64,000 nt of DNA, taken from IMG/VR virus record IMGVR_UViG_3300006139_000005, positions 26,050 through 90,049 of that record. The stretch is one strand, 5' to 3'. The notes beneath the pieces were generated by a model that saw only the letters and a list, made by a program, of their open reading frames with translations, had not been told where the DNA came from and did no database searches. This document shows positions 28,546 to 43,557 of this stretch, piece after piece; positions within the stretch are counted from its first letter, which is position 1; the number at the start of each line of letters is the position of its first letter. This DNA comes from a virus (lineage: Duplodnaviria > Heunggongvirae > Uroviricota > Caudoviricetes). The position numbers and the translations under genes were made by a program.

Positions 28546-28554
28546 GGGCAAGAA

Positions 28555-28580: not shown

Positions 28581-28586
28581 CCTCGG

Positions 28587-29186: not shown

Positions 29187-29248
29187 TTAGACCTCCCCTC
29201 CTGAATTACGTGGATTGAAAACTCTTCGTGAGTAACCATTATACCATA

Positions 29249-29614
29249 TTAGCTGTCCGATTTTTTGGACTGTTCATCGGAAAAAGCGTAGTCAAAGCCA
29301 ATCTTCAGCATTGCCATCATGCGGTTTTTGTCACGATCTGTCATTCGTTCTCTTGCCCGCTGCAAGGAAACAAAGTCTTGATCTCGCATAACAGTGTCGA
29401 TTGGGGTGCGGATATCGGTTGCGCCTACAATGTAATCTATGGAAACACCAAAGTATTTTGCAATTTTTGAGATCTTGTCAATGGTTGGGCAGGTGGCGTT
29501 TTTCCACCGCCCAATGGAATACTGGCTCATTCCAAGTTCAGTTTCCAGTTTGTTGACTGTGATCTCATTCTCAGCACACAATTCTTTAATCCTTGTGAAA
29601 ATGATAGAGTCCAT
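29249..29614 (-). CDS. XRE-family HTH repressor (cI/ImmR-like)
   Basis: ITVNKLETELGMSQYSIGRWKNATCPTIDKISKIAKYFGVSIDYIVG HTH_3 pattern; divergent from a rightward promoter; track ORF 5' extension rejected. Confidence 0.75.
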   Translation of the reverse strand: MDSIIFTRIKELCAENEITVNKLETELGMSQYSIGRWKNATCPTIDKISKIAKYFGVSIDYIVGATDIRTPIDTVMRDQDFVSLQRARERMTDRDKNRMMAMLKIGFDYAFSDEQSKKSDS

Positions 29615-29642
29615 AACACAACCCCCAAACAGAAAATTCATC

Positions 29643-29750
29643 ATATCACGAAAAAGTGCGTGATAACCCCTTGACAACACGTATAAATGCTGGTATAGTA
29701 AGCACCAGGCACGAAAACTATCGTGATATTGCTGATATTGTATCACACGT
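29643..29750. promoter_or_regulatory. operator cluster: CGTGATA/TATCACG palindromic half-sites (TATCACGaaaaagtgCGTGATA; CACGAaaactaTCGTG; TCGTGATA-N12-TATCACAC) around the divergent promoters
   Basis: read directly from sequence. Confidence 0.55.
29670..29698 (+). promoter_or_regulatory. sigma-A promoter TTGACA-N17-TATAGT (rightward, cro-side)
   Basis: consensus hexamers and spacing, embedded in the operators. Confidence 0.55.
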
Positions 29751-31362: not shown

Positions 31363-31530
31363 TTGCCGGTATTCATTTTCTTGGTCTTTGCGTTTGCGGC
31401 TGTGCTGTGGGTGCTGCTATCTTTCGCATTCAAACCGCTCGGCAAGTTTGTTGGACGGCTAATCAAGGATGCAAAGGACGCAATGGACGAGGAAGATCCA
31501 AGCGATGAAGACACAGCAAATAAACATTGA
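31363..31530 (+). CDS. small membrane protein (TTG start)
   Basis: G7 tract as SD; LPVFIFLVFAFAAVLWVLLSFAF helix then acidic tail; directly upstream of the SPFH gene. Confidence 0.25.
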   Translation: MPVFIFLVFAFAAVLWVLLSFAFKPLGKFVGRLIKDAKDAMDEEDPSDEDTANKH

Positions 31531-31547
31531 CGGAGGTAAAATACACA

Positions 31548-32480
31548 ATGAGAAGAAAAGGTTTCATCGGAGCAATCGTCCTTGCAATCGCAATCTTTGG
31601 AAGTATCATTTTGGCACTGTTCTGTACCAGTCGTGTTCCGGCAGGGTATGTCGGCGTCGTCTACAACATGAACGGCGGCGTTGACGGTGAGGTTCTTTCC
31701 CAAGGTTGGCATCTGGTCGCACCTACCAAGAAAGTCACGACATACTCAATCGGTATTGAGCAAAGCTATCTGACCTCTGACGAAAAGGGCGACAGCAAGA
31801 CCGATGAGAGCTTCAGTATCCCTACTTCTGACGGCAAAACGGTTCGGGTAAATTTGGAGTTCTCCTATCGTTTCGATGAGGCACGAGTGGCTGAAACATT
31901 CGTAACATTCAAAGGAAAGTCCGGCGAAGAGATCAAGGACACATTTATCAAGCCCAAGATTATCGCATGGACTCAGGAGGTCAGTGCTAACTATCCTGTT
32001 ACAGACATCTTTGGCGATCAGCGTACCACTATCAATGCAGAGCTTGATCTTTACCTCAAGGAGAAGTTCGATAAGTATGGCATTATTATTGACACGGTGA
32101 ACTTCACCGACATCTCTGTGGATGCTGAGACTGCTGCGGCGATCCAAAAGAAAGTAACCGCCCAGCAGGAGCTTGAACTTGCGAATATTGAGGCGCAGAC
32201 TGCTAAGATTCAGGCCAACAAAGATAAGGAAGTTGCCATGATCCAGGCGGAGAAGGACAAGGAAGCCGCAGAGATTCAAGCGCAGACAGCATTGGTTAAG
32301 GCAAATGCAGATGCTGAGGTGTTGCGGATTGCTGCCGAAGCTGAGGCAGAGGCAAACAGAGTGATTGCCGCCTCCCTTACTTCTGAGTTGATTGAGAAGA
32401 TTAAGTATGAGCAGTGGGATGGTAAGATGCCTACCGTATCCGGTTCTGGCTCCATTGTCACCATCCCAGGCGTGAATTGA
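31548..32480 (+). CDS. SPFH/band-7 (stomatin/HflK-like) membrane protein
   Basis: N-terminal TM helix, SPFH core, C-terminal EAQTAKIQANKDKE...AEAEAEANR coiled coil. Confidence 0.75.
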   Translation: MRRKGFIGAIVLAIAIFGSIILALFCTSRVPAGYVGVVYNMNGGVDGEVLSQGWHLVAPTKKVTTYSIGIEQSYLTSDEKGDSKTDESFSIPTSDGKTVRVNLEFSYRFDEARVAETFVTFKGKSGEEIKDTFIKPKIIAWTQEVSANYPVTDIFGDQRTTINAELDLYLKEKFDKYGIIIDTVNFTDISVDAETAAAIQKKVTAQQELELANIEAQTAKIQANKDKEVAMIQAEKDKEAAEIQAQTALVKANADAEVLRIAAEAEAEANRVIAASLTSELIEKIKYEQWDGKMPTVSGSGSIVTIPGVN

Positions 32481-32491
32481 GGAGGAACGAT

Positions 32492-32794
32492 ATGGCGTTC
32501 AACAACAAGAAAACCAATACGGCGTCCCGTGACATTTTGCGGGAGAAGCAGCAGGAGGTTGATCGGCTTGCGCAGCAGGCGGATGATGCTGTCGAGCTTG
32601 TGACACGCGCTATCAATCGTCTGGAGCTTATCAATCAACAGATTGACGACGCTATGGGAGAGATTGACACCTATACGGCTGATCTGGCGAAGACGCGAGA
32701 AGCTATGTCCAAACAGCGCCAGGGAAATGCGGCTATCATCAATAATTTCACCAAGCTCCTAAGTACAGAGGACTCCGGCTCAATTTCTGAATAA
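32492..32794 (+). CDS. coiled-coil hypothetical protein
   Basis: GAGGAGG RBS; 100 aa. Confidence 0.5.
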   Translation: MAFNNKKTNTASRDILREKQQEVDRLAQQADDAVELVTRAINRLELINQQIDDAMGEIDTYTADLAKTREAMSKQRQGNAAIINNFTKLLSTEDSGSISE

Positions 32795-32899
32795 AAGAGC
32801 CATTTGGTTTGAGACGCTAACAGCAACTTTAACAAAACAATGAACATTTAATTCATCACGTTAAAATGCGTCTCGTGGTGGTTAGCAACCGCCGAATAT

Positions 32900-32989
32900 G
32901 GAGTGGTAAGTCTAATGGTAAGACAGCGGTTTGCTAAACCGTCAGTAGCCCGAAAGGGTGTGTGGGTTCGAGTCCCACCCACTCCGCCA
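32900..32989 (+). tRNA. tRNA-Ser (anticodon GCU), CCA encoded
   Basis: acceptor GGAGTGG/CCACTCC, anticodon loop TTGCTAA, long variable arm, T-arm GTGGGTTCGAGTCCCAC. Confidence 0.8.
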
Positions 32990-33524
32990 GCCGTGTGGTG
33001 AGCGGCATTGCGTACATTGCAAACCCCTTTCTTGACGGTGGGAAAAGACCACTACTGCCGTGTAAGTGCGGCAATATGGGAACGTCCGGTGGTCAGGCCA
33101 ATCTGTGTAATGGGTGGCGGACACATACAGCAATCTTCATTATAAAAAAGACTTGAAATCTTTTCCTTGGCGGTTCAACTCCGCCAGTTCCCACAATAGC
33201 CACCATACTGATTCTTAGGAAGGAGGTACGTGCCATGAATAGAGCACGTGACCAGACCATTTAAGAAGTCGTATCTGTAAATGTAGAACGGCTGCAACAA
33301 GTGGGGCGATGCCCCACAAGGTTTCAAAATGTGAGCCGCCCACATGAGTGCGGCAGAATCGGAACGCAGTTGAGGAGGCTCTGCAATGAATAAAGCACGA
33401 GACAAGCCCTAAGTTCGCATCCAAACAGAAATATATTTGACCGGCTCCTTTGAAATATGAAACTATGGGACGCTAACAGCAAGTCATTCTGAAATTTTAA
33501 GAAACAACAATGCGTCCCGAATAT

Positions 33525-33638
33525 GCGGAGATAGCTCAGTCGGTAGAGCGATGGTATAAAATGTGGAACATTTCGTTCTCACTAACAGCAAGGTTAAATG
33601 GAGGCTATGTGTCGTAGGTTCGAGTCCTACTCTCCGCA
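33525..33638 (+). tRNA. tRNA-like gene with about 45-nt insert in the anticodon loop (isotype not assignable)
   Basis: acceptor GCGGAGA/TCTCCGC, D-arm GCTCAGTCGGTAGAGC, T-arm GTAGGTTCGAGTCCTAC; insert ATAAAATGTGGAACATTTCGTTCTCACTAACAGCAAGGTTAAA; no CCA. Confidence 0.5.
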
Positions 33639-33851
33639 TCAGACTCCTTTGTTTTCCGGTATCCTTTCGAGTCGCTAAGAAACAAGCCGGCGTGGTTGCG
33701 GACGAAAAGGCGCAAGTGGATTCCGTTCCCACCGAGAAGCGGATAGGGGCAGGGCTTTGGGTACGCTTATGTCTGTTCTGAAATCAAGCGCCAGATAATC
33801 AGCCCAAATATCTTGAACTGGGTTGTGACAGCTTGGAAAGACAAGCAAAAC

Positions 33852-33966
33852 GTCAGGGTAGCTCAGTGGATAGAGCACGTATCAATGCGTATCTTATGAA
33901 ACGCGCACAGCAATGTTTTAAGGAATTTTAATCCCGTGGTCGTGGGTTCGAGTCCCACCCCTGGCA
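33852..33966 (+). tRNA. tRNA-like gene with long insert between D-arm and T-arm
   Basis: acceptor GTCAGGG/CCCTGGC (one G-U), D-arm GCTCAGTGGATAGAGC, T-arm GTGGGTTCGAGTCCCAC; insert contains CACAGCAATG; anticodon stem unresolved. Confidence 0.4.
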
Positions 33967-33971
33967 TCTAT

Positions 33972-34089
33972 GCGGTAGTGGTGAAGTGGTTAAACACAGC
34001 GGTCAATAAAATGTGAAATGTTATAGTTTCACTAACAGCAAGGTAAAAAGCCAAACCGCCAATCGTAGGTTCAAATCCTACCTGCCGTA
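33972..34089 (+). tRNA. tRNA-like gene with about 44-nt insert in the anticodon loop
   Basis: acceptor GCGGTAG/CTGCCGT, anticodon stem GCGGT/ACCGC, T-arm GTAGGTTCAAATCCTAC; insert ATAAAATGTGAAATGTTATAGTTTCACTAACAGCAAGGTAAAA homologous to that in 33525-33638. Confidence 0.5.
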
Positions 34090-34240
34090 CAATATAGGGG
34101 AACGTAAACCATCGTCTCCTCCCACCCTATTTAACGATAAAATGGTGACAGCTCGGAGAGACGGGCACATCTCTGAACACGTACAGCAAAAGTAGTTAAG
34201 GTGTTCCAGGTATCTCAAAATTTATTAGGAGGTAAGAGAA

Positions 34241-35800
34241 ATGAGCAACTTTATGGATGGTGTCAAGGATACACTCGTCAATGGATCTGACAATGTATCC
34301 GTAACCGAAAATGGAGCAGTTGGCTACCGTACCACGGGGCGTTCCCTGCTGGATCTCAACTTTGCGGTCGCATCTCTCCGCAATGCTTCGGAGCAGGATA
34401 TCTCCAAGCGTTTCATCAAGGCGTTCTTTGAGGATAAGGTGACGGCTATGAAGTGGCTATTCTTCGCCCGCGATGTGCGTGGTGGACTTGGTGAGCGGCG
34501 GCTGTTCCGTGCCTGCATGGTGCCGATGGCGAATGACTTCCCTGAGTATGTCGCCCCGGTTTTATCTCTGGTGCCTGAGTATGGCCGCTGGGACGATCTC
34601 TGGTGTCTGCTGGATACTCCGTTGGCCGACAAGGTGATTGAGTTGGTAGGCACTCAACTCCACGATGATATGCGTGGCTACAAGGAGAAGAAGCCTGTCT
34701 CTCTGCTCGCAAAGTGGATGCCCAGATGTAAGACATCTTCCAAGCAGACCCGCAGATATGGACAGCTTTTGCGGAGTGGTCTGAATATGACGGAGCGTGA
34801 TTATCAGCACACGCTGGCGGATTTGTCCCGCTATCTGGTCGTGGTTGAGCAGCAGATGTCTTCTCAGACGTGGGATGGAATTGACTATCAGCGTGTCCCC
34901 TCCCGTGCTAACCTGATCTACAACGATGCTTTTCTCCGCCATGACACTGAGCGGCGGCGTGAGTTTTTGGAGCGTGTGGAGAGCGGCGACGCCAAGATTA
35001 ACGCCGGCACGCTGTTCCCTCACGATATCGTGAACAAGTACCGCCGTACAAACAGTGTAGATGCTACGCTGGAGGCTCTTTGGAGTAACTTGCCGGATAC
35101 CGTGCAGGGTTGCGGCAACACGATTGTTGTCCAGGACGACAGCGGGAGCATGACATGGGTAACGCTCCCCGGTAGCACGGCCCGCCCCTTGGAGGTAGCG
35201 AACGCACTCGCAATCTATTTTGCCGAGCGTTCTTCTGGTCAGTTCAAAGATCAGTATATCACTTTCTCTGATCGCCCAGAGCTGATTGACTTGTCAAATG
35301 GCAAGAACCTCTATGAGCGGTTGAGAATCGTCCATGAGTGCCACGCTGGAGCAAACACCAATGTGGAGGCCGTCTTTGACCTCATCTTGAACACGGCAAT
35401 CTCCAAGCACATGGATCAGAGCGAACTTCCCGCCAATGTGCTTATCATTTCCGACATGGAGTTTGACTCCTGCGCCAGCTGTGGAGCGCCGTCCAGAGAT
35501 CGCTGGGGGTACAACACAAGCAGACCGAGCGCCAGACTGTTCGACGAGATCAAGCGGAAGTACGAACAGGCTGGATACAAGATGCCTCGTTTGGTGTTCT
35601 GGAATGTTGCCAGCCGTAGCGAGACGATTCCTGTCAAGGAGAACGATATGGGCGTTGCTCTGGTCAGCGGCTTCTCTGTCAATATCGCCAAGATGGTGAT
35701 GAGCGGCAAGCTCGATCCCTACGAGTGCTTGCTTGAGACTTTGAACACGGAGCGATACCAGCCCATTGAGGACGCATTGCGCCATGTTGTTGGCGAATAA
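34241..35800 (+). CDS. TROVE-like helical domain plus C-terminal vWA domain protein (Ro60/Rsr-like, DUF2828-like)
   Basis: MIDAS motif VVQDDSGSMT and downstream LIISDME; about 300-aa helical N-terminal region; 519 aa. Confidence 0.5.
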   Translation: MSNFMDGVKDTLVNGSDNVSVTENGAVGYRTTGRSLLDLNFAVASLRNASEQDISKRFIKAFFEDKVTAMKWLFFARDVRGGLGERRLFRACMVPMANDFPEYVAPVLSLVPEYGRWDDLWCLLDTPLADKVIELVGTQLHDDMRGYKEKKPVSLLAKWMPRCKTSSKQTRRYGQLLRSGLNMTERDYQHTLADLSRYLVVVEQQMSSQTWDGIDYQRVPSRANLIYNDAFLRHDTERRREFLERVESGDAKINAGTLFPHDIVNKYRRTNSVDATLEALWSNLPDTVQGCGNTIVVQDDSGSMTWVTLPGSTARPLEVANALAIYFAERSSGQFKDQYITFSDRPELIDLSNGKNLYERLRIVHECHAGANTNVEAVFDLILNTAISKHMDQSELPANVLIISDMEFDSCASCGAPSRDRWGYNTSRPSARLFDEIKRKYEQAGYKMPRLVFWNVASRSETIPVKENDMGVALVSGFSVNIAKMVMSGKLDPYECLLETLNTERYQPIEDALRHVVGE

Positions 35801-35820
35801 CGACGAACGAAATCAAAGGA

Positions 35821-35872
35821 GGCTCAGAACGATAGTATAGCGCACTGGCTGTCTACGGTCTGAGCCTCTTTT
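35821..35872 (+). terminator. hairpin terminator
   Basis: GGCTCAGAAC...GGTCTGAGCC followed by TCTTTT. Confidence 0.5.
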
Positions 35873-35891
35873 ACAGAGAGGAGTGCAATTC

Positions 35892-37010
35892 GTGATTTAC
35901 TTAGACCACGCAGCAACGACACCTATGTTTCCAGAGGTTCTGGAGGCTATGCTTCCCTGGTTCCAACCAGATCATGTTGGCAACGCAAGCAGTATCCACA
36001 CGCAAGGAGTAAACGCTTTTCGAGCCATTGAAGATGCTCGTGAAAAGGTTGCCAAAATGATTAACGCCGATGTCTCTGAAATTTTCTTTACGTCAGGCGG
36101 TACAGAATCTAATAACACATTCGCCAGCCATATCCTTGGCGAGAGGGTCATCACAACTCCCTTGGAGCATCATTCCGTTACGCATCCGCTTGAGAGATGG
36201 GCACATGAGGTGTCCTATGTAAAGAATTTGCCCGATGGTAGCGTGGATTTGGAAGATTTGAGCCGCCTGTTAAATCTCTGTTGTCACAAAGCGGTTTCTG
36301 TAATGTGGATCAACAATGAGATTGGTACAATCAATCCGGTTGAGGAAATTGCAGAGCTTTGTAAAAAGCACAGTATACTCCTTCATGTGGACGCTGTGCA
36401 GGCGGCAGGCCATATACCTATCGACGTGAAGAAGTGCGGAGTGGATTTCCTCTCCATGTCCGGGCACAAGTTTGGCGCACCGTTTGGTGTCGGAGTGTTT
36501 TATGTGCGTAGTGGAGTCCAGAAAGAATCTCTGATTAGCGGAGGAGGTCAGGAGCACGGTATAAGAGCCGGCACCTATAATGTGCCTGGTATCGTGGGGC
36601 TTGGTAAGGCCGCTGAAATCATCACAAGTCGGCTCCCCAGACAAATCGAAAAGTGGAACACGCAGGAATATGTTTTGCTGAAAGAACTGGACAAGGTGAT
36701 GCCAGGAGAATACAAGCAAAACGCCGCTGCAAAAAGGACACACAACATTATCAGTCTGACCATTCCCAGTGTAAATAGCGAGGCTCTGTTGCTTTTGCTG
36801 GATCAGAAAGAAATTTATCTTTCTGCTGGTTCCGCTTGCAGTGCATCGGATGCAAGTTTGTCTCATGTCCTGAAAGGAATTGGGTTATCAGATGAAGATG
36901 CTGCATCAACCGTTCGTATTTCGTTGGGATATGAAAACACGGCGGACGAAATGGTGGAAACGGCCCAGGCCATTGCAGAGGTGGCACACAAGCTAAAGGC
37001 TATGTATTGA
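35892..37010 (+). CDS. cysteine desulfurase (NifS/IscS-like class V aminotransferase)
   Basis: LDHAATTP start; PLP-lysine motif SMSGHKFGAPFG; SAGSACS active-site Cys loop; GTG start with GAGGAG RBS. Confidence 0.8.
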   Translation: MIYLDHAATTPMFPEVLEAMLPWFQPDHVGNASSIHTQGVNAFRAIEDAREKVAKMINADVSEIFFTSGGTESNNTFASHILGERVITTPLEHHSVTHPLERWAHEVSYVKNLPDGSVDLEDLSRLLNLCCHKAVSVMWINNEIGTINPVEEIAELCKKHSILLHVDAVQAAGHIPIDVKKCGVDFLSMSGHKFGAPFGVGVFYVRSGVQKESLISGGGQEHGIRAGTYNVPGIVGLGKAAEIITSRLPRQIEKWNTQEYVLLKELDKVMPGEYKQNAAAKRTHNIISLTIPSVNSEALLLLLDQKEIYLSAGSACSASDASLSHVLKGIGLSDEDAASTVRISLGYENTADEMVETAQAIAEVAHKLKAMY

Positions 37011-37071
37011 TAAGACTGCATAAAATTTATGTTTCATTTAGCGACGAATTAAATCGAAGAGGTGAAAATAA

Positions 37072-38483
37072 ATGTACTGTGCGTATGTTACAAGAATTAA
37101 AAATCTGCGCAAGCACACCAACGCTGATCGGCTGATGTGTGGTGAGTGTTTCGGGAACACGGTAATCGTGGATCTTGGCACCGACCCCAACCAGCTTGGC
37201 GTTTACTTTCCGGTAGACGGAAAACTTGGTGTCGAGTTTGCACAAAAGAATGACCTGTTGCGGCGAAAGGATGAGAACGGAGATCCTGCCGGTGGATATC
37301 TTGATCCTGAGAAACGAAACATCAAAGCCCTGAAACTTCGTGGAGAAAAGAGTGACGGTTTGTTTCTTCCTATTAGCTGTCTGGATGGCTTTACAGACAC
37401 TACACAACTCAAAGAGGGCGACACAATCACAATGCTGAATGGTGTCACAATTTGCGAGAAGTACATTCCAAAGGCCAAACGAGCAGCTGGTGGTGGTCGT
37501 GGCGGGAGCCGTGTCCGCAAGAAGTCTGATCCAATCTCTCCTCTGTTCTTGAAGCACGCAGATACAGAGCAGCTTGCCTACAATTTGTCTGCGTTCCATA
37601 ACGGCGATCTGGTTGAGATTACGCTGAAGATGCACGGCACCAGCCAGCGCACCGGCTATCTTCCCATCCTCAAAGGCTACCAATATAAAAACGGTTTGGA
37701 AAAGCGGCTGTTTGAGAGCGAGAAAACTCCTGATTGGCTCCGCGCCAGAATCAAGAGAACGCCTATCTATGACTGGGGATATGTTACTGGTACGAGGCGG
37801 GTTGTTCTTGACGGTTACGACGGTGGCTTTTATGGAAGCAATTCTTTCCGTGAGCAACACGCAAAGGTCTTTGAAGGGAAGCTCCGCAATGGTGAGGAGG
37901 TCTACTACGAGGTGGTTGGTTTCACCGACGATGGCACACCTATCATGTCTCCTGGAAGCAACGCCAAGATTGGTGATAAGGAGTTTACCAATATGGCTGT
38001 GATCCAACCGGAAAGAAAACAGTTATGGATGAGAGCGGAGTGGCCTCTATCCCTGTGCCGAAGTCCGATCTCTATGTCTACCGCATGACTATGACCAACG
38101 AAGATGGTGATGTGGTGGAGTATTCGCCTGACTTCATGCGTTATCGCTGTGAGCAGATGGGCGTCAAGTGTGTACCTCTCTTCTGCCGCACAATCATTCC
38201 CGATCTTTTCCAACTGCCTGATAATGTGGGTTCTCCCCAGGCGGTGGATGCTGGCGAATATGTAAAGAAGCTGGCTGAGGATTTCTACGATGGCCCTGAC
38301 CCCGTAGGCAAAACCCATGTGCGTGAAGGTGTTGTTTGCCGCATTGTCAATCGCCCAAAGTTTGCTGCTTATAAGCACAAAAATTTCTCTTTCAAGGCTC
38401 TTGAGGGATTGATTAAGGATACTGCTGCTGCACCTGATATGGAAGAGGCACAGGAAGAGGTTGTGGAGGCAACCGATGGATAA
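37072..38483 (+). CDS. ATP-dependent RNA ligase (Rnl2/Rnl5-like, N-terminal OB-like domain), interrupted by a -1 frameshift near 38016
   Basis: nucleotidyltransferase motif I LKMHGTS (KxHG); downstream EGVVCR/YKHKN motifs lie in the overlapping frame 38025-38483. Confidence 0.6.
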
Positions 38484-38787
38484 AGCTGAAATTCTCGGCT
38501 TTATCCAGAACTTCAAAGGCTCTAAGGACGTGTTTCTTAACGGCTGCTGTTATTGGTTTGCTTTCATTTTGCAAGAGCGGTTTGGCGGCAATATGATGTA
38601 CGAGCCTGTGGAAAATCACTTTGTTCAGGAAATCGGTGGACGCCTTTATGATGTGAGTGGAGATGTCACAGAGGAATACACCTCAGAGCATTTAATGTTC
38701 TGGGACGATATGGAGAGTTATGACGCATCCCTTTACCAACGACTTCTCAGAGATTGTGTGAGAAAGGAGGAGTGCCCATATGAATAA
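38476..38787 (+). CDS. hypothetical protein
   Basis: GGAGG RBS; 103 aa. Confidence 0.4.
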   Translation: MDKAEILGFIQNFKGSKDVFLNGCCYWFAFILQERFGGNMMYEPVENHFVQEIGGRLYDVSGDVTEEYTSEHLMFWDDMESYDASLYQRLLRDCVRKEECPYE

Positions 38788-39415
38788 AGACCGCATTATG
38801 AATCGGCTACAGCAGCATTTGGACGCTGTACGAGAATCTGGGCAGGATTGGTTGGGAATTTTCTTACAAGGTTCTCAAAACTACGGCCTGGACTATGAGA
38901 GTAGCGACATTTTCACTCCGTATTACATCCTCAATCCGATTTATGCCGACTTGTTCCAGCCTATTTGGGACGCCAGAGAGGACATTGCTCGCTATAACAA
39001 TTATGCTGGGATGAGCTGTCTTCTTGGTATGGCATTAGAGAAACAGAAAGCAATGGAGCATCCATATCCTGCAACCATTGATAAGATTGAACGGTTTGGC
39101 TACGATCCCAAGCAGCTCCATCACGCTTTGCGGATGCGTGAATTTATGACACGCTACATGGCCGACGAAAAATATTCCGATTGCTTGGTTAGCAAACAAG
39201 CCGATTACCTTGTAGAAGTAAAACGTGGGTGTCACTCTCTGGAAGAAGCGCGTCGGCTTATGCAAGAAGCTGTTGATTCTATGAAAGCTGATAAACAGCA
39301 GTACATGGATACAACTCCTGTTTGCATTAACGAACACGCAAATGAAGTGATGCAGACAGCCACAGTAGAAATTCTTAAACGATGTTTCTTAATGGAACTG
39401 CAAGGAGGAGAGTAG
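38780..39415 (+). CDS. minimal nucleotidyltransferase (Pol-beta superfamily)
   Basis: LQGSQNYGLDYESSDIF = GS-x10-DxD NTase signature; 211 aa. Confidence 0.55.
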   Translation: MNKDRIMNRLQQHLDAVRESGQDWLGIFLQGSQNYGLDYESSDIFTPYYILNPIYADLFQPIWDAREDIARYNNYAGMSCLLGMALEKQKAMEHPYPATIDKIERFGYDPKQLHHALRMREFMTRYMADEKYSDCLVSKQADYLVEVKRGCHSLEEARRLMQEAVDSMKADKQQYMDTTPVCINEHANEVMQTATVEILKRCFLMELQGGE

Positions 39416-39416
39416 T

Positions 39417-40355
39417 TTGAACCTGTCAACGCAATATTTCTTCATGCTGGTTGGACTTCCTGGAAGCGGAAAGTCTTGGTATGCGGAAAACAAATTGTCC
39501 CATGCGGTCATCCACTCCAGCGACGCAATTCGTGAGGAACTTTTGAACAATGTGGATGATCAGAGTCAGCAGGAATTGGTGTTTCAAACTCTTCACGACC
39601 GTGTAATCCGTGATTTGCAAATTGGCTTGAGTGTGGTATATGACGCTACCAATATCAGTTATAAGCGCCGTCGTGTTTTTCTGCAACAGGTGAAAGGACT
39701 GCATATTCCTGGCCTTAAAACCGTCTGTGTTTTTATGGCAACCCCGTATTCTAAATGCGTAGAGAATAACGCCAATCGTGAACGCACTGTGCCTGAGAAT
39801 GTAATTCATCGGATGTATCAGAATATCGACATTCCGATGAAAGCCGAGGGATGGGATGCTATCTGGATCGAAAATGTAGACCCGTTTATTGGCGACATCA
39901 ACTTCTTGCTGAGTCGCCTTGCTGGTATGGAGCACGACAACCCTCACCATGAGTTTACAGTTGGACAGCATATGTTGACGGCCTATGAATATTTCGACAA
40001 GAACTACTCTGATATGGCAAACGATATTCCTCTTGGCCGTGCAGTTGCACTCCATGATATTGGAAAAGAGTTTACAAAGGTTTTCCATGACAGCAAGGGA
40101 AATCCCACAGATATTGCCCACTATTACAACCACGAGCGTGTTGGTGCCTATGAGAGTTTTGCTCACACCGCTGATTTGTTGTCCAAGGATGACCAACTGA
40201 GGGTTGCGCTTTTGATTCGCTGGCATATGGCACCATTCGCTGTGGAAAAGTCAGATCATCCGAGCAAGACCGAGAGAAAGTTTAAGGATTTGCTTGGTGA
40301 AGATATCTGGTCGCAGGTTATGATTTTGCACGATTGTGACCTGCACGCACACTAA
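39417..40355 (+). CDS. polynucleotide kinase (P-loop) fused to HD phosphohydrolase: RNA/DNA end-healing enzyme (HD-Pnk type, domain order kinase then HD)
   Basis: Walker A LVGLPGSGKS at the N-terminus; HD-domain residues NPHHEF...ALHDIGK...H...D at the C-terminus. Confidence 0.7.
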   Translation: MNLSTQYFFMLVGLPGSGKSWYAENKLSHAVIHSSDAIREELLNNVDDQSQQELVFQTLHDRVIRDLQIGLSVVYDATNISYKRRRVFLQQVKGLHIPGLKTVCVFMATPYSKCVENNANRERTVPENVIHRMYQNIDIPMKAEGWDAIWIENVDPFIGDINFLLSRLAGMEHDNPHHEFTVGQHMLTAYEYFDKNYSDMANDIPLGRAVALHDIGKEFTKVFHDSKGNPTDIAHYYNHERVGAYESFAHTADLLSKDDQLRVALLIRWHMAPFAVEKSDHPSKTERKFKDLLGEDIWSQVMILHDCDLHAH

Positions 40356-40383: not shown

Positions 40384-40812
40384 ATGAAAGACAATCACAT
40401 CAGTCCGTGGAGTGTTAGGGTGCAGCCTGTAAACGCCGATCTGCTTCGCTTGTTGGGTTCGTATACCCCCCCCAATAAGGTAAAGGTCGGACTTGATCAA
40501 AACAGCTTCACCGCTGGATGGAACGCCGCTGTTCGCTATATGCGGGAGCATCCTGCCTTGCCGGGTATTCATCGTGTGATTTTCAACGGCCCTGCCACTA
40601 TCGTTTACTGGGACGATGGCTCCAAGACGGTGGTGAAGTGCCAGCCTGGAGACACCTTCAGTGCTGAGACTGGTCTGATGGCTGCTATGCTCAAGCGTTT
40701 TATGGGGAATGACAATACCTACAACAAGGTACTTAACCATTGGCTTGGAACGGTGACTCCTCAGCTTCCCGCTCCTGACGATTCGCCCCAACTGACAGAC
40801 GGTACGGAGTGA
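40384..40812 (+). CDS. hypothetical protein
   Basis: AAGGAGG RBS; 142 aa. Confidence 0.5.
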   Translation: MKDNHISPWSVRVQPVNADLLRLLGSYTPPNKVKVGLDQNSFTAGWNAAVRYMREHPALPGIHRVIFNGPATIVYWDDGSKTVVKCQPGDTFSAETGLMAAMLKRFMGNDNTYNKVLNHWLGTVTPQLPAPDDSPQLTDGTE

Positions 40813-40894: not shown

Positions 40895-41852
40895 ATGGGG
40901 GAGGTGGACGTTTTGCATAGCAAAGAACAACTGGAAGAGATGCAGCGTCTGCCTCTCTCTCGCAAAATCCAGATTACTACGGCTCGCATTATCGAATGGT
41001 ATCAGCACTACGACGGCCAAGTGTATGTTGCGTTTTCAGGTGGCAAGGATTCAACCGTACTTCTTGACATCGTGAGGCGTATTTACCCAGATGTTCCGGC
41101 TGTATTCTCCGACACTGGGCTTGAGTTCCCAGAGGTTAGAAAGTTCGCTATGAGCCGTGATAATGTGACTGTTGTACGGCCAGAGATGAATTTCCGCAAG
41201 GTTATTGAGGTGTATGGATACCCTCTGATATCAAAGCGAACAGCAGAGACGGTTGAATACGGAAAGAAGCCTGGATCGTATCGTTGGAAGGAGATCCACG
41301 GGGAGGTTATGATGTCGAATGGTAAACCATCGAAATTTAACTGTCAAAAGTGGTGCTACCTATTAGATGCGCCTTTCAAGGTGTCTTCCAAGTGCTGCGA
41401 TATTATGAAGAAGCAGCCAATGAAAAAATACGTTAAAGAGACTGGCCGTTTTCCTATCACTGCAACTATGGCAGTAGAAAGCATATCCAGAGAAGTCGTA
41501 TGGATGCGACAAGGATGCAATGCCTTTAACAATAAATCGCCCATCTCTCAGCCTATGTCGTTCTGGACAGAGAATGATGTACTCGAATATCTTTATACTT
41601 ATCAAATCCCATATGCTTCTGTCTACGGTGAAATCGTTAAAGCTGATGGGGGGGGGGTGGACGACAACAGGAGAGCATCGTACTGGCTGTGTCTTTTGTG
41701 CCTTTGGCGCTCATTTGGAAAAGTCTCCGAACCGCTTCCAGCGTCTAAAAATCACACATCCAAAACTCTGGAACTACTGCATGAAGCCGTGGGAAGAACA
41801 CGGCCTTGGTATGCGAAAAGTGCTTGAGTATATCGGAGTTCAAGTAGAATAA
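40895..41852 (+). CDS. PP-loop ATP pyrophosphatase (TtcA/DndC/PAPS-reductase-like); C-terminal CxxC segment lies in another frame after a G10 tract
   Basis: YVAFSGGKDSTVLLDIV PP-loop; frame switch at 41648-41657 to ...GCVFCAFGAHLEK... (track ORF 41520-41852). Confidence 0.65.
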
Positions 41853-41868
41853 TTTTATGAGGTGCATT

Positions 41869-42288
41869 ATGAAGAAAATTATGGCTGTTATTATTGCAGC
41901 AACCATGATGCTTGTCTTGCTTGTTGGTTGTGCAGAAAGCAATGAGTATCTGGAGCAGCAGTGTAATGAATTGCGAACAGAAATCGCTGTGCTCAAAGAA
42001 CAAAAGTCCGCTATTGAGGCTGAAATTGTAAGCGCAAAAGAAGAGAATGGAACGGCAACCTATGTAGTTACATTCCGCATCAAACAATCACATTTCACAC
42101 TCGATATCGGTGAACACCTTAAAGACTCAATGAACGAAATTACTTTTGAGGTTCCTGTCGATAAGGCGTATTATGATAGCGTTTCTGTTGGCGACACGAT
42201 CAATGATGATTTTCGTATGGGATCACTGATTATGCACGGTTCATTTGGGAATTGGAAAGTCACCATTGAAAAGAAAGAAGTGCAATAA
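41869..42288 (+). CDS. lipoprotein
   Basis: MKKIMAVIIAATMMLVLLVGCAES signal peptide with lipobox; 139 aa. Confidence 0.6.
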   Translation: MKKIMAVIIAATMMLVLLVGCAESNEYLEQQCNELRTEIAVLKEQKSAIEAEIVSAKEENGTATYVVTFRIKQSHFTLDIGEHLKDSMNEITFEVPVDKAYYDSVSVGDTINDDFRMGSLIMHGSFGNWKVTIEKKEVQ

Positions 42289-42323
42289 ATAACACTTAAA
42301 TTTAGAAAAGTGAGGTTTACAAC

Positions 42324-42608
42324 ATGAGAAATAACGACGGATTTACACTGCTTGGAATCGGCAGTGCGATTATTGGACTGATTGGGCTTCTGGTATTCAG
42401 TCCAGTCATTACATTTGGGTTTGCATGGTTTGGTGGATGGATTTTGAAGCTGTGTGTCGGAAATGCCATTGCCAGTGGTATGAACCTGATGTTCGACACA
42501 GCACGTTTCACACCAGACTTCATTCCGTTGGCCTGTGCAACACTGGCTACTATCGGAAAATATTTTAAGAGTTCACAAACCAACAGCAATAAAAACGAGA
42601 GGAGATAA
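42324..42608 (+). CDS. small integral membrane protein
   Basis: GAGGT RBS; 2-3 hydrophobic helices. Confidence 0.5.
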   Translation: MRNNDGFTLLGIGSAIIGLIGLLVFSPVITFGFAWFGGWILKLCVGNAIASGMNLMFDTARFTPDFIPLACATLATIGKYFKSSQTNSNKNERR

Positions 42609-42729
42609 TACCAATCCTGGTAAACCAGGTTCATGTAAGATTGATAAGTGCATGGTAAAGCCGCCTGTTGCAGCGTGGAGGCCGAAAAGCTGAAGCATGG
42701 GAGGATTAGGCGGTTGACCTCAGCCAGTG

Positions 42730-43557
42730 ATGGTTGTGGTCGGTATGATTCACATTGTTTGTTTTTCTGGCGGTCATTCATCTGCAATCGCCGCCGTGGA
42801 AGTGGTTAGACGGTACGGGTCTGAGAATACGGTATTACTTAACCATAATCTGTGTCCACGTACTGAAGACCAAGATATTAAGCGTTTCAAAAATGAGGTT
42901 TCGGATTATTTGGGTGTTCCAATTACTTATGCCAATATGCCTGGATGGGAGCGCAAGGATCAATTTGATGTGTGCGTGGATATCAAAGCATTCAAGACTG
43001 GCGCACAGTCAACGGCTCTTTGCACAAATAGGTTGAAAACTGAGCCTTTTCACAAATGGCTTGCGGAGAACTACCCACCCCTACTGCCAGCGGTCAGAGA
43101 TGATATATCTCTGGTTTATGGGTTCGACGCCAATGAGCAGCGCCGTATTCAGCGTAGAGTCGGTATTATGGCTGCTATGGGATACCAGACTGAGTATCCA
43201 TTGACCTGGGAGGCAAGGACGATTCACGACATCGAAGAGATTGGGATTAAGCGTCCAAGAACCTATGACATATTCAACCATGCAAATTGTATTGGTTGCC
43301 TAAAGGCCGGCAAACAACATTGGTTCATTGTTTACTGTCTCTATCCCGAAATTTGGGAAAAGGCGAAGCTGGCAGAACAAGCAATCGGGTATAGTATCCT
43401 AAAACAAGGCTTTCTCTCAGATTTCGAGGTGGAATTTGCTAAGCTCAAAAAAAAGGCGCTACCTCCTACTGAGAAAACCAAACCACAAAAATTTTGGGCA
43501 GTAGCACGAAAGCTCATCAAAGATGATGACAACCTTCCGTGTGAGTGTTCATTCTAA
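42730..43557 (+). CDS. PP-loop superfamily ATPase (QueC/PAPS-reductase-like)
   Basis: IHIVCFSGGHSSAIAAV N-terminal PP-loop variant; 275 aa; weak RBS. Confidence 0.5.
   Translation: MVVVGMIHIVCFSGGHSSAIAAVEVVRRYGSENTVLLNHNLCPRTEDQDIKRFKNEVSDYLGVPITYANMPGWERKDQFDVCVDIKAFKTGAQSTALCTNRLKTEPFHKWLAENYPPLLPAVRDDISLVYGFDANEQRRIQRRVGIMAAMGYQTEYPLTWEARTIHDIEEIGIKRPRTYDIFNHANCIGCLKAGKQHWFIVYCLYPEIWEKAKLAEQAIGYSILKQGFLSDFEVEFAKLKKKALPPTEKTKPQKFWAVARKLIKDDDNLPCECSF

What the first reader, a model, noticed from the sequence alone, without database searches (positions are those of the whole stretch)
34241..40355. RNA-repair-like cassette next to the tRNA cluster: Ro60/TROVE-vWA-like, NifS, RNA ligase, minimal NTase, kinase-HD end-healing enzyme
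Five consecutive plus-strand genes begin 150 nt after the last tRNA-like gene. First is a 519-aa protein with a helical N-terminal domain and C-terminal vWA MIDAS motif (DDSGSM), the Ro60/Rsr or DUF2828 architecture; bacterial Rsr partners with tRNA-mimicking Y RNAs and RNA ligases. Next come a NifS/IscS-type cysteine desulfurase, an Rnl-type ATP-dependent RNA ligase with the KMHG motif, a minimal Pol-beta nucleotidyltransferase (GS-x10-DxD), and a P-loop polynucleotide kinase fused to an HD phosphoesterase (an HD-Pnk-type end-healing enzyme with reversed domain order). This is a heal-and-seal toolkit like T4 Pnk/Rnl1, but of a different enzyme lineage and bundled with an Ro60-like protein and unusual tRNA-like RNAs. 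Plausible roles are repair of anticodon-nuclease damage, maturation of the insert-bearing tRNAs, or an RNP-based anti-defence function.
Basis: partly seen in the sequence, partly recalled or inferred. Interest (0 to 1): 0.85.

Follow-up and report, generated by a model that had tools for sequence, protein, structure and literature searches.

The report
Phage Ro60-like RNP plus tRNA-repair genes
A gut-bacterial virus carries a protein shaped like the human Ro60 autoantigen next to tRNA-shaped RNAs that all hold one conserved hairpin-plus-CAGCAA tag, followed by partly broken tRNA-repair genes; the tagged RNAs appear to be an undescribed partner family for this very common protein.

Summary

The upstream "insert-bearing tRNAs" carry a covarying 7-bp GNNA hairpin followed by RCAGCAA, placed 5' of the anticodon. 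Open copies of this module sit in tRNA leaders and in the DUF2828 5'UTR. The module lies next to DUF2828 genes in 63/75 protein-seeded loci, 56/62 bacterial-genome loci and about 73/102 RNA-seeded loci, always on the gene's strand. No Rfam family matches it. The repair genes are linked to DUF2828 only in nearby clades.

Best reading: a Ro60/Y-RNA-like RNP, here placed beside a decaying heal-and-seal tRNA-repair set. RNA binding and any splicing are inferred, not shown.

The parts
32810..32875 (+). Leader-type ('open') copy of the module upstream of tRNA-Ser: stem strand TGAGACGC, then UA, ACAGCAA, a 41-nt loop, AAAU, and stem strand GCGTCTCG
   Evidence: 8-bp stem flanking the box; MFE fold pairs GAGACGC with GCGUCUC; CM hit 32793-32832, E 0.09
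32900..32989 (+). Ordinary tRNA-Ser(GCU), the only uninterrupted tRNA in the window
   Evidence: ARAGORN; Rfam tRNA 57.7 bits
33077..33193 (+). Degenerate insert-bearing tRNA-like RNA. Module at 33099-33139; local anticodon stem-loop AAAGA/CTTGAAA/TCTTT; T arm GCGG/TTCAACT/CCGC
   Evidence: Weak Rfam tRNA hit 33119-33193; CM R1 E 0.045; dissection
33466..33519 (+). Leader-type module 6 nt upstream of the next tRNA-like gene: TGGGACGC, UA, ACAGCAA, 29-nt loop, CAAU, GCGTCCCG
   Evidence: E 0.6
33525..33638 (+). Insert-bearing tRNA of the Pro-like subfamily. Module at 33557-33597, inserted right after the 5' strand of the anticodon stem
   Evidence: Rfam tRNA 51.6 bits with a 48-nt insert; CM R1 E 8.7e-5; in-silico removal gives an ARAGORN-valid tRNA
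33852..33966 (+). Insert-bearing tRNA-Lys(UUU)-like RNA. Module at 33881-33919, inserted between positions 28 and 29 of the anticodon stem. Removing it leaves stem CGGGA/TCCCG and loop AUUUUAA
   Evidence: Rfam tRNA 43.4 bits; CM R1 E 1.1e-7
33972..34090 (+). Insert-bearing tRNA of the Gly(GCC)-like subfamily. Module at 34007-34047, inside the anticodon loop; no U33 on either side of the insert
   Evidence: Rfam tRNA 47.2 bits; CM R1 E 3.4e-7; fold z-score -3.3
34175..34206 (+). Open module in the 5'UTR of the DUF2828 gene: GAACAC, GU, ACAGCAA, 11 nt, GTGTTC. It ends about 22 nt before the AGGAGG Shine-Dalgarno sequence. Candidate autoregulatory site
   Evidence: aligned with 1-3 tandem leader copies in other phages; density 4.36/kb in the 400 nt upstream of DUF2828 starts against 0.22 and 0.125/kb elsewhere
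34241..35800 (+). 519-aa Ro60-like protein (DUF2828 helical domain plus DUF7788 vWA domain with complete MIDAS)
35883..37010 (+). Class-V PLP cysteine desulfurase (NifS/IscS/DndA/SspA-like), with the SGHK lysine and GSAC cysteine loop present
   Evidence: NifS 3e-108; SspA 8e-114
37072..38483 (+). ATP-dependent RNA ligase with N-terminal OB fold and motif I KMHG (DraRnl/NgrRnl-like). Here it is split into two frames (37072-38088 and 38025-38483) by a 28-nt deletion at 37991|37992
   Evidence: phrog_968 5e-49 and 1e-11; TIGR02306 1.3e-9; PHA02142 OB in 8/8 and RNA_ligase in 7/8 relatives; deletion shown
38461..38787 (+). YunG-like small protein of unknown function, reduced to a 30-aa remnant in most of the 72% clade
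   Evidence: Pfam Phage_YunG-like 1.6e-10
38780..39415 (+). RlaP-like Pol-beta nucleotidyltransferase remnant (211 aa). A 165-nt in-frame deletion at about 38910 removes the second and third catalytic carboxylates
   Evidence: no Pfam hit; full-length relatives hit RlaP weakly (best 2.1e-5); the three Asp are required (PMC12776372); the short form is shared by L193-L197
39417..40355 (+). Bifunctional end-healing candidate: N-terminal P-loop polynucleotide kinase (CthPnkp-like) fused to a C-terminal HD phosphoesterase
   Evidence: AAA_33 3e-18; 4gp7 4e-13; bacter_Pnkp 7e-17; HD 5e-3, CCA-enzyme HD region 1e-3, Cas3-HD 1.5e-3
40384..40812 (+). Conserved 142-aa protein with no family assignment. 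It travels with the cassette in the >=72% clade only
   Evidence: no hits
40895..43557 (+). Two PP-loop ATPase genes (40895-41827 PAPS-reductase-like; 42727-43557 with an SGGHSS motif). Likely sulfur-transfer partners of NifS rather than repair enzymes
   Evidence: PF01507 7.6e-18; phrog_424; weak TtcA/DndC hits; sequence motif

Best explanation
The locus belongs to a roughly 135-kb phage of gut Clostridia, probably Oscillospiraceae. It combines two things.

(A) A Ro60/Y-RNA-like ribonucleoprotein.
- The 519-aa DUF2828/DUF7788 protein has the Ro60 fold: a helical domain plus a vWA domain with MIDAS.
- Its gene is preceded by an array of its presumptive RNA ligands. Each ligand carries one conserved module: an A-rich lead, a 7-bp covarying stem with a GNNA loop, two nucleotides, then the single-stranded box RCAGCAA followed by U's.
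- In four RNAs the module sits inside an otherwise complete tRNA, always 5' of the anticodon. That is the position where the Ro60-binding stem emerges in bacterial YrlA.
- In three places the same helix-plus-box occurs in an 'open' topology: in two tRNA leaders and in the protein's own 5'UTR.
- Inferred: the protein binds the helix end and the RCAGCAA strand, represses or tunes its own mRNA, and uses the tRNA-shaped bodies to bring tRNA-handling or RNA-degrading enzymes to it, as Y RNAs do for Ro60.

(B) A heal-and-seal tRNA-repair set placed next to it in this clade.
- Pnk phosphorylates 5'-OH ends.
- HD removes 2',3'-cyclic or 3'-phosphate.
- RlaP restores lost 3' nucleotides.
- The DraRnl-like ligase seals the break. 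This would reverse cleavage by host anticodon nucleases.
- In this window, part B is decaying. RlaP is catalytically gutted across the lineage, and the ligase is frameshifted in this sequence only.

NifS probably serves the two downstream PP-loop enzymes (thiolation of tRNA or DNA), not repair.

Shown: gene identities, the fold, the RNA module with its covariation and its two-way linkage to the gene, and the lesions. Inferred: RNA binding, autoregulation, repair substrates, and any cooperation between A and B.
For: Protein identity:
- DUF2828 and DUF7788 domains, phrog_850.
- MIDAS residues are invariant.

RNA module:
- All 7 stem pairs show compensatory changes. Pairing is 96.9% in the seed and 97.7% in 83 independent sequences, against <= 55% in slid controls.
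- C, G, C, A, A of the box are invariant in 82-84 of 84 sequences.

Linkage, protein to RNA:
- 153 CM hits in 75 viral loci. 152 are on the gene's strand, nearly all within about 1 kb upstream, in 63/75 loci.
- 118 hits in 62 bacterial-genome loci, all on the + strand and all within 2 kb upstream, in 56/62 loci.

Linkage, RNA to protein:
- A tRNA-plus-ACAGCAA pattern scan that used no protein information returned 117 loci. 63 have a DUF2828 gene within 1.5 kb downstream and 10 have one just upstream, out of 102 evaluable.

Leader copies:
- They are enriched 20-35-fold in the 400 nt before the start codon, in 63/75 loci.

Redundancy:
- Phages carrying module-bearing Asn- and Gly-like RNAs also encode normal tRNA-Asn and tRNA-Gly.
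- No insert-free alleles of the module-bearing RNAs were found.

Precedents:
- Y-RNA genes lie directly upstream of Ro60 genes in bacteria and phages, and the phiLo RNP recruits host PNPase (PMC4201824, PMC12135203).
- Phage cassettes combining Rnl, RlaP, Pnk, a phosphoesterase and TROVE are described in PMC7824862.

Repair enzymes.

Gene order: DUF2828-NifS-Rnl-(YunG)-RlaP-PnkHD is kept in about 20 loci at 72% identity, and as a block 6 kb downstream at 64% identity.
Against: - No binding or expression data exist.
- The protein is not a sequence-level TROVE member, and the RNAs match no Y-RNA model.
- The module-bearing RNAs keep canonical 7-nt anticodon loops with U33 and R37, and their bodies match their anticodons. 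A pure scaffold would not need this.
- Linkage of DUF2828 to Rnl, RlaP and Pnk-HD is clade-limited (3-4 of 50 clades within 6 kb), so A and B may be independent neighbours in a tRNA-region hotspot.
- Cassette genes are often lost or broken in relatives.
- The most divergent DUF2828 loci in the protein-seeded set (<= 43% identity) lack detectable modules.
Confidence: 0.55

Rival explanations
1. Protein-dependent tRNA splicing. The hairpin-RCAGCAA inserts are introns of real phage tRNAs (Lys, Pro, Gly, Ser here; Asn, Thr, His, Leu elsewhere). DUF2828 recognises the intron, an unidentified endonuclease cuts at both junctions, and Pnk-HD, optionally RlaP, and Rnl heal and join the halves. This would be a Trl1-like pathway in a bacterial virus.
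For: - Deleting the insert in silico gives ARAGORN-valid tRNAs in 55 of 56 cases. Anticodon loops are canonical, and the bodies are about 85-90% identical to normal phage tRNAs with the same anticodon.
- An insert at 28|29, 31|32 or inside the anticodon loop should be incompatible with decoding (my own inference from ribosome-tRNA contacts).
- Healing and sealing enzymes lie adjacent in this clade.
- Sibling phages tolerate interrupted tRNAs. A different 47-nt insert is present or absent at nt 34|35 of orthologous tRNA-Leu(UAA).
Against: - No endonuclease candidate was found in the cassette.
- Junction positions and the distances from the conserved box to the junctions vary, and no conserved boundary or bulge-helix-bulge is visible.
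- The Gly-like subfamily yields no U33 after simple excision.
- No insert-free alleles were found.
- The same module occurs outside tRNAs, in leaders and the 5'UTR.
- Most DUF2828-plus-module loci have no ligase within 6-10 kb.
- This lineage keeps the RNAs although RlaP is dead.
Confidence: 0.2
2. Unrelated neighbours. The tRNA region of these phages is a hotspot for accessory genes. DUF2828 with its RNAs, the NifS/PP-loop thiolation genes, and the Rnl/RlaP/Pnk-HD repair genes act independently. The apparent cassette is only local synteny in one clade.
For: - Across 50 DUF2828 clades no protein family is a neighbour in more than 7.
- In the 64% clade about 6 kb separates DUF2828 from the repair block.
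- Individual genes are lost or broken independently: L002 lacks Rnl, L011 lacks RlaP, YunG is a remnant, and L198 has a split RlaP.
- NifS is as similar to DNA-phosphorothioation desulfurases as to NifS.
Against: - The same combination recurs elsewhere: a Ro-type protein, tRNA-like RNAs, an RNA ligase and an end-modifying enzyme form the Salmonella rsr-yrlBA-rtcBA operon (PMC4201824, PMC7790460).
- TROVE proteins are listed among phage RNA-repair components (PMC7824862).
- Within the block, genes overlap or are separated by at most 82 nt, and no intergenic terminator was found.
Confidence: 0.2
3. Decoy or sensor for host anticodon nucleases. The module-bearing RNAs display authentic anticodon stem-loops of commonly targeted tRNAs while held by the Ro-like protein. 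They would titrate the nucleases, or report cleavage to the RNP.
For: - Anticodon loops are preserved even though normal isoacceptors exist in the same phages.
- Anticodons switch among orthologues: GUU, UUU, UGU, GGU.
- Phage tRNAs are known to counter tRNA-targeting defences (PMC7824862).
Against: This is purely inferential. An insert next to or inside the anticodon arm may destroy nuclease recognition. No defence partner has been identified.
Confidence: 0.05

Closest known systems
Ro60 (Rsr)/Y-RNA RNPs of bacteria and phages: D. radiodurans Rsr-Yrn1-PNPase, Salmonella rsr-yrlBA-rtcBA, Thermus phage phiLo Ro60-Yrl1/2
   Same: - Two-domain fold: helical repeats plus a vWA domain with MIDAS.
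- Small structured RNA genes lie directly upstream of the protein gene on the same strand (PMC4201824; PMC12135203).
- The RNAs mimic tRNA, and the putative protein-binding element sits where the anticodon arm is.
- In Salmonella the operon also holds an RNA ligase and an end-modifying enzyme.
   Different: - No TROVE sequence signature; the Pfam families are different.
- The RNAs are full cloverleaf tRNAs with acceptor ends and anticodon loops, not permuted tRNA-like domains.
- The conserved element is a GNNA hairpin plus single-stranded RCAGCAA, not the bulged Ro-binding helix or the CGAA motif. There are no Rfam Y-RNA hits.
- Open copies occur in mRNA leaders.
- The ligase is ATP-dependent Rnl, not RtcB.
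Phage T4 Pnk/Rnl1 heal-and-seal repair, and the phage RNA-repair cassettes catalogued by Aravind and co-workers (PMC7824862)
   Same: The logic is the same: a 5' kinase, a 3' phosphoesterase, an ATP-dependent RNA ligase and an RlaP nucleotidyltransferase, placed near phage tRNA genes.
   Different: - The phosphoesterase is an HD domain, not HAD.
- The ligase has an N-terminal OB fold (DraRnl/NgrRnl type), unlike Rnl1 and Rnl2.
- In this window the ligase and RlaP are inactivated.
Runella slithyformis HD-Pnk with its adjacent ligase (Munir and Shuman 2017, as described in PMC6097658), and Clostridium thermocellum Pnkp
   Same: A bifunctional HD phosphoesterase and P-loop polynucleotide kinase encoded next to an ATP-dependent ligase. 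The kinase domain is homologous to that of CthPnkp (4gp7, 4e-13).
   Different: The domain order is Pnk-HD rather than HD-Pnk. There is no metallophosphoesterase or fused ligase domain as in CthPnkp, and no Hen1 or Tpt1 partner.
DraRnl/NgrRnl (Rnl5-type) RNA ligases
   Same: N-terminal OB domain followed by a nucleotidyltransferase domain with KxxG. TIGR02306 matches at 1.3e-9, with weak NgrRnl hits over the OB region.
   Different: The protein is about 140 aa longer, with insertions and a C-terminal extension. Scores fall below the family cut-offs. The window copy is frameshifted.
RlaP (PF10127) nucleotidyltransferases
   Same: Full-length relatives carry GSQNYG..SDIDTK and hit PF10127 (best 2.1e-5). 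The gene sits between the ligase and the kinase, as RlaP genes do (PMC12776372).
   Different: This is a distant subfamily, below the Pfam cut-off. The window's 211-aa form lacks two of the three essential Asp.
Protein-spliced tRNA introns of archaea and eukaryotes, and group I introns in bacterial tRNA genes
   Same: Short inserts interrupt the anticodon arm of otherwise normal tRNAs.
   Different: At 40-55 nt the inserts are far too small for group I introns. No bulge-helix-bulge is seen. The positions are non-canonical, 5' of the anticodon. The conserved RCAGCAA module also occurs outside tRNAs. Splicing has not been shown.

Membership tests
Pfam DUF2828 / DUF7788 | Significant match to both Pfam models | tested here: met
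   118.2 and 152.8 bits, above cut-offs of 29 and 27.1
Ro60 / TROVE | TROVE (PF05731) sequence signature | tested here: not met
   No TROVE hit at E <= 0.01 in Pfam. No PDB sequence hit at E <= 10
Ro60 / TROVE | Two-domain Ro60 fold (helical repeat domain plus vWA) | tested here: met
Ro60 / TROVE | MIDAS motif (DxSxS...T...D) in the vWA domain | tested here: met
   D299, S301, S303, T373 and D405 are invariant in 44 sequences
Ro60 / TROVE | Cognate small RNA genes adjacent to the protein gene | tested here: met
   Module-bearing RNAs lie upstream in 63/75 and 56/62 loci. The reciprocal scan found DUF2828 in about 73/102 loci
Ro60 / TROVE | The RNAs are Y RNAs (Rfam Y RNA/YrlA models; bulged Ro-binding helix) | tested here: not met
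   Only tRNA hits in 32400-34400 at E <= 1
Ro60 / TROVE | Direct binding of the RNA by the protein | not testable with these tools
   Needs EMSA or RIP
ATP-dependent RNA ligase, DraRnl/NgrRnl (Rnl5) type | N-terminal OB domain followed by a nucleotidyltransferase domain with the motif I lysine (KxxG) | tested here: inconclusive
   PHA02142 OB in 8/8 and RNA_ligase in 7/8 relatives, with best E-values of 4.6e-5 and 6.5e-6. TIGR02306 scores 1.3e-9, which is 37.5 bits against a cut-off of 151. KMHG is invariant
ATP-dependent RNA ligase, DraRnl/NgrRnl (Rnl5) type | Motifs I, III, IV and V in one intact polypeptide | tested here: not met
   In the window, a 28-nt deletion puts motif IV (EGVV) and motif V (KHK) in another frame. 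The gene is intact in L193-L198
RlaP (PF10127) | Pol-beta core with three catalytic Asp (GS...DxD...D) | tested here: not met
   The window protein reads GS-x10-D-I-F and lacks the next 55 residues. It has no Pfam hit. The requirement for three Asp is from PMC12776372
RlaP (PF10127) | Profile match of full-length relatives | tested here: inconclusive
   2 of 7 relatives hit PF10127 (best 2.1e-5). L001 scores 18.1 bits against a cut-off of 23
HD-Pnk (Runella type) | N-terminal HD 2',3'-phosphoesterase followed by C-terminal P-loop 5'-OH kinase | tested here: not met
   Both domains are present but in the opposite order: kinase at residues 9-150, HD at about 170-300. The Runella order is from PMC6097658
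Polynucleotide kinase (CthPnkp/T4 Pnk clade) | P-loop kinase domain homologous to characterised 5'-OH polynucleotide kinases | tested here: met
   4gp7 4e-13; TIGR04075 7e-17 over the kinase segment; AAA_33 67 bits
HD phosphohydrolase superfamily | H...HD...H...D metal-binding motifs and a profile match | tested here: inconclusive
   Motifs HH(EF), LHDIGK, NHER and HDCD are visible. PF01966 scores 17.4 bits against a cut-off of 22. CCA-enzyme and Cas3-HD models hit at about 1e-3
NifS/IscS class-V cysteine desulfurase | Aminotran_5 fold with the PLP lysine and catalytic cysteine loop | tested here: met
   PF00266 270.6 bits. SGHK and GSACSA are present. NifS 3e-108 and SspA 8e-114, below the equivalog cut-offs
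Group I or bulge-helix-bulge tRNA introns | Ribozyme core of more than 200 nt, or a BHB motif at the exon-intron junctions | tested here: not met
   The inserts are 40-55 nt, and no ribozyme family matches. The junction sequences show no complementary 4-bp helix with 3-nt bulges; this rests on inspection only

The most novel reading that the evidence does not exclude
The hairpin-RCAGCAA module is the address tag of a large, unrecognised family of Ro60-like RNPs in phages of gut Clostridia. When embedded in tRNAs it would act as a protein-dependent intron. DUF2828 would hold the precursor, the insert would be cut out, and the neighbouring Pnk-HD, RlaP and Rnl enzymes would join the halves. That would be an enzyme-catalysed tRNA-splicing pathway in a bacterial virus, letting the phage keep its tRNAs unreadable, or resistant to nucleases, until they are matured.
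Probability: 0.15. Interest if true: 0.9.

Novelty: new variant of a known kind. Interest (0 to 1): 0.7.

Why it matters
Ro60 and its Y RNAs are conserved from bacteria to humans, but their roles in bacteria and phages remain poorly defined. DUF2828 proteins are very abundant: at least 7958 homologues were found in the metagenome protein set. They have no assigned function.

If they are Ro60-fold proteins with their own recognisable RNA partner, then:
- thousands of orphan genes and unannotated, aberrant-looking tRNAs in gut phage genomes gain an annotation;
- a 39-nt RNA with an invariant CAGCAA box and a defined protein provides a compact system for studying RNP recognition;
- it becomes possible to test whether phages use tRNA-shaped RNPs to counter tRNA-targeting immunity.

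There is also a practical point. tRNA finders give inconsistent anticodons for these genes, including a spurious suppressor call.

Tried and rejected
1. Suppressor tRNA or stop-codon recoding. ARAGORN -i called 33852-33966 'tRNA-Stop(tta)'. The call depends on an arbitrary intron placement. Comparative dissection gives the loop AUUUUAA. ORF coverage under each single-stop reassignment was uninformative.
2. Programmed frameshift or intron in the ligase. Rejected: six 99.9%-identical assemblies carry the 28 extra nucleotides and a single ORF. No direct repeats flank the deletion.
3. Y-RNA/YrlA or any other Rfam family for the RNAs. No hits.
4. Group I or small-ribozyme introns. The inserts are too short, and no Rfam ribozyme matches.
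5. Bulge-helix-bulge junctions. None seen on inspection.
6. Insert-free orthologues of the module-bearing tRNAs. None among 680 distinct normal tRNAs from the fetched loci; the best matches are about 85-90% identical paralogue-like sequences.
7. A conserved protein partner, such as an endonuclease, next to DUF2828. Clustering of neighbours found none in more than 7 of 50 clades.
8. rrn-type boxA antitermination similarity of UAACAGCAA. Only superficial (my own recollection of the boxA consensus), so not pursued.
9. Near-identical annotated phages. No megablast hit in the 50,697-record phage collection.
10. The Burroughs and Aravind 2016 paper could not be read. Its content is cited only through PMC7824862.
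11. Profile searches of the ligase and NTase alignments against PDB sequences gave only marginal hits.

Full report
**What is at 34241-40355**

The interval holds seven same-strand ORFs.
- 34241-35800: 519 aa, DUF2828 (5e-34) plus DUF7788 (1e-44), phrog_850 'RNA-binding protein' (3e-138).
- 35883-37010: a class-V cysteine desulfurase (Aminotran_5 3e-80, NifS model 3e-108, SspA/DndA about 1e-112).
- 37072-38088 and 38025-38483: two halves of one RNA ligase, matching phrog_968 positions 9-254 and 296-393.
- 38780-39415: 211 aa with no Pfam hit, matching only the C-terminal part of a phage nucleotidyltransferase PHROG.
- 39417-40355: a P-loop polynucleotide kinase fused to an HD domain. The kinase matches AAA_33 at 3e-18, the CthPnkp kinase domain 4gp7 at 4e-13 and bacter_Pnkp at 7e-17. 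The HD region has the motifs HH, LHDIGK and HDCD, with HD at 5e-3, the CCA-enzyme HD region at 1e-3 and Cas3-HD at 1.5e-3.

Intergenic gaps are at most 82 nt or the genes overlap. No intergenic terminator-like site was found. This fits co-transcription but does not prove it.

**Two lesions**

The window is 99.9% identical to six independent metagenome assemblies (L193-L198) and 93-99% identical to IMG/VR contig 3300006201_000003 (L001).
- Ligase. Relative to all seven, the window lacks 28 nt (ACAGTACGGCAAAACAACTTTCTTCAGT) at 37991|37992. This shifts the frame after KEFT and separates motif I (KMHG) from motifs IV (EGVV) and V (KHK). The lesion is private to this sequence. It is either a rare variant or an assembly artefact, not a programmed feature.
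- NTase. The 211-aa protein is a 165-nt in-frame deletion derivative of a 265-277-aa protein that reads GSQNYGLDxxxSDIDTK.... The deletion removes the second Asp and the following core. RlaP enzymes need three Asp (PMC12776372). The short form is shared by L193-L197 and is further split in L198, so this lineage has lost the activity. Full-length relatives are distant RlaP homologues (best PF10127 E-value 2.1e-5).
- Relatives show further decay. L002 lacks the ligase, L005 and L029 have it split, L011 lacks the NTase, and YunG is a 30-aa remnant in most of the 72% clade.

**The 519-aa protein is Ro60-like by fold, not by sequence**

**The upstream RNAs**

ARAGORN finds only tRNA-Ser(GCU). Rfam finds three more tRNA matches of 114-118 nt with 48-55-nt inserts, plus a weak fourth.

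Comparison with 75 related viral loci showed that the inserts share one module:
- an A-rich lead;
- a 7-bp stem closed mostly by a GNNA tetraloop;
- two nucleotides;
- RCAGCAA, followed by U's.

Evidence for the module's structure:
- The stem covaries at all seven pairs. Pairing is 96.9% in 14 seed sequences and 97.7% in 83 independent sequences, with 173 double substitutions. Slid controls give <= 55%.
- The seed was chosen for having a hairpin, and the second alignment was fitted to the model. However, a hairpin was found at the same place in all 66 distinct inserts examined.
- C, G, C, A, A of the box are invariant in 82-84 of 84 sequences.

The insert always lies 5' of the anticodon:
- between positions 28 and 29 of the anticodon stem in the commonest type. 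In window 33852-33966, removal leaves CGGGA/AUUUUAA/UCCCG, a Lys(UUU) arm;
- right after the stem's 5' strand in a Pro-like type (33525-33638);
- inside the loop in a Gly-like type (33972-34090), which lacks U33.

In-silico removal gives ARAGORN-valid tRNAs in 55 of 56 cases. Some bodies are 85-90% identical to ordinary phage tRNAs with the same anticodon.

**Open copies of the module**

The same helix-plus-box also occurs with the opposite connectivity: stem strand, UA, ACAGCAA, a loop of 11-45 nt, AAUG, then the complementary strand.

In the window this form is found at:
- 32810-32875, before tRNA-Ser;
- 33466-33519, six nt before the Pro-like RNA;
- 34175-34206, in the DUF2828 5'UTR about 22 nt before the Shine-Dalgarno sequence.

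Other phages have one to three tandem copies in the same leader. Across 75 loci the density is 4.36 per kb in the 400 nt before the start codon. The rest of the strand has 0.22 per kb and the opposite strand 0.125 per kb. Copies are present in 63 of 75 loci.

**Linkage to the protein gene, in both directions**

Starting from the protein:
- A covariance model of the module gave 153 hits (E <= 0.1) in 1.45 Mb of viral loci. 152 are on the gene's strand, and nearly all lie within about 1 kb upstream (63/75 loci).
- In 62 loci from bacterial genome assemblies it gave 118 hits (E <= 0.01). All are on the gene's strand and all lie within 2 kb upstream (56/62 loci).

Starting from the RNA:
- A pattern of tRNA D-arm, ACAGCAA and T-loop, scanned over IMG/VR without any protein information, returned 117 new loci.
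- Of the 102 with enough flanking sequence, 63 have a DUF2828 gene within 1.5 kb downstream (median gap about 400 nt) and 10 have one just upstream.
- 11 of the 24 negatives lack the hairpin and are probably chance matches.

In the window itself only the tRNA region scores: three hits at E < 1e-4 and two more at E <= 0.09. Seven of the 18 ACAGCAA sites fall in 1.4 kb.

By contrast, no protein family neighbours DUF2828 within 6 kb in more than 7 of 50 clades: SPFH 7, NifS 5, RlaP 4, Rnl 3, Pnk-HD 3. Blastp clustering may split some families, so these counts could be underestimates.

**Interpretation**

The constant unit is the Ro60-like protein with the module-bearing RNAs. This mirrors Ro60 systems. 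Y-RNA genes sit directly upstream of rsr, mimic tRNA, and carry the Ro-binding stem at the position of the anticodon arm (PMC4201824). The phiLo phage Ro60 binds two upstream Y-like RNAs and recruits host PNPase (PMC12135203).

I therefore infer three things. None has been shown.
- The DUF2828 protein binds the helix end and the single-stranded RCAGCAA.
- It autoregulates through the 5'UTR copy.
- It uses tRNA-shaped RNAs as adaptors.

Two observations favour a constitutive partner over an optional parasite. Phages with module-bearing Asn- and Gly-like RNAs also encode ordinary tRNA-Asn and tRNA-Gly. No insert-free alleles were found.

The Rnl/RlaP/Pnk-HD block matches the known phage heal-and-seal toolkit (PMC7824862; HD-Pnk in PMC6097658). 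It is adjacent only in the clades at >= 64% identity. The Salmonella rsr-yrlBA-rtcBA operon shows that pairing a Ro-type RNP with a ligase recurs (PMC4201824, PMC7790460). Cooperation here is plausible but unproven.

NifS more likely serves the two PP-loop ATPases downstream, at 40895-41827 and 42727-43557.

**Rivals**

- Protein-dependent splicing of the inserts remains open. In favour: valid tRNAs result after removal, anticodon loops are preserved, the ligase is nearby, and a different insert is optional in sibling phages. Against: there is no endonuclease candidate, the junctions vary, the Gly-like type lacks U33, the module also occurs outside tRNAs, and the RNAs persist where RlaP or the ligase is broken.
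- Independent neighbours in a tRNA-region hotspot, and a nuclease-decoy role, are also possible.

**Verdict**

The cassette is an ordinary kind of phage RNA-repair set, and here it is partly decayed. The Ro60-fold DUF2828 protein with its hairpin-RCAGCAA RNA family appears undescribed. Five papers mention DUF2828, none of them on function, and no Rfam family matches. It is best classed as a new variant of the Ro60/Y-RNA theme.

Noticed in passing
L031:11603-11735, L030 and L039 versus L032:11603-11688 and L035 (related loci, not the window): A second, unrelated class of tRNA inserts. Orthologous tRNA-Leu(UAA) genes differ by an exact 47-nt insertion after nt 34 of the anticodon. The insert looks like a tRNA minihelix: a 6-7-bp acceptor-like stem, a T-arm-like hairpin and a 3' ACCA. 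Similar CACCA-ending inserts of 47-93 nt interrupt Gln-, Arg-, Thr- and Met-like tRNAs in these phages. Their ends suggest excision by tRNA-processing enzymes followed by ligation.
   Followed up: partly
window 33235-33264 and 33386-33412 (+): Two tiny ORFs with strong AGGAGG ribosome-binding sites sit between the tRNA-like genes: MNRARDQTI* and MNKARDKP*. They are conserved in near relatives, and L201 has MNRARDKP. Possibly leader peptides; function unknown.
   Followed up: partly
window 33640-33850 (+): About 210 nt of non-coding sequence between two tRNA-like genes, with no Rfam hit and no module. It holds ACAGCTT-like degenerate boxes near 33828 and, further on, near 34147.
   Followed up: no
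window 31503-31569 (+), at the start of the SPFH/Band-7 gene 31527-32480: An exact ACAGCAA box flanked by an 8-bp stem (CGATGAAG/TTTCATCG) in the open-module arrangement overlaps the start of the SPFH gene. SPFH is the most frequent protein neighbour of DUF2828, in 7 of 50 clades. This could be co-regulation or chance; about one such match is expected among the other boxes.
   Followed up: no
window 35883-37010, 40895-41827, 42727-43557 (+): The cysteine desulfurase and two PP-loop ATPases (one PAPS-reductase-like, one with an SGGHSS motif and no family hit) look like a sulfur-relay set. The desulfurase scores equally well against DndA/SspA (DNA phosphorothioation) and NifS. The target, tRNA or DNA, is unresolved.
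   Followed up: partly
window 40055-40102 (+), inside the Pnk-HD gene: A weak module-like hit (E 0.38): a 7-bp stem followed by UGACAGCAAGG within coding sequence. Probably chance.
   Followed up: no
window 1-22000: The first third of the window is made of short ORFs on alternating strands. Coverage by ORFs of at least 450 nt is 61%, against 86% in the rest. Relaxing any single stop codon did not single out a recoding.
   Followed up: partly
window 38910 onward, compared with L001: Identity to L001 drops from 98-99% to about 93% exactly at the NTase deletion point, and to 87% beyond 42588. This suggests a recombination boundary at the lesion.
   Followed up: no
window 25498-29746: A 1015-aa N6-methyltransferase/Eco57I-like protein, followed on the opposite strand by an M78 peptidase and HTH pair. 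The Pfam calls are on the identical loci L193-L196. This looks like a restriction-modification or regulatory module just upstream of the tRNA region.
   Followed up: no
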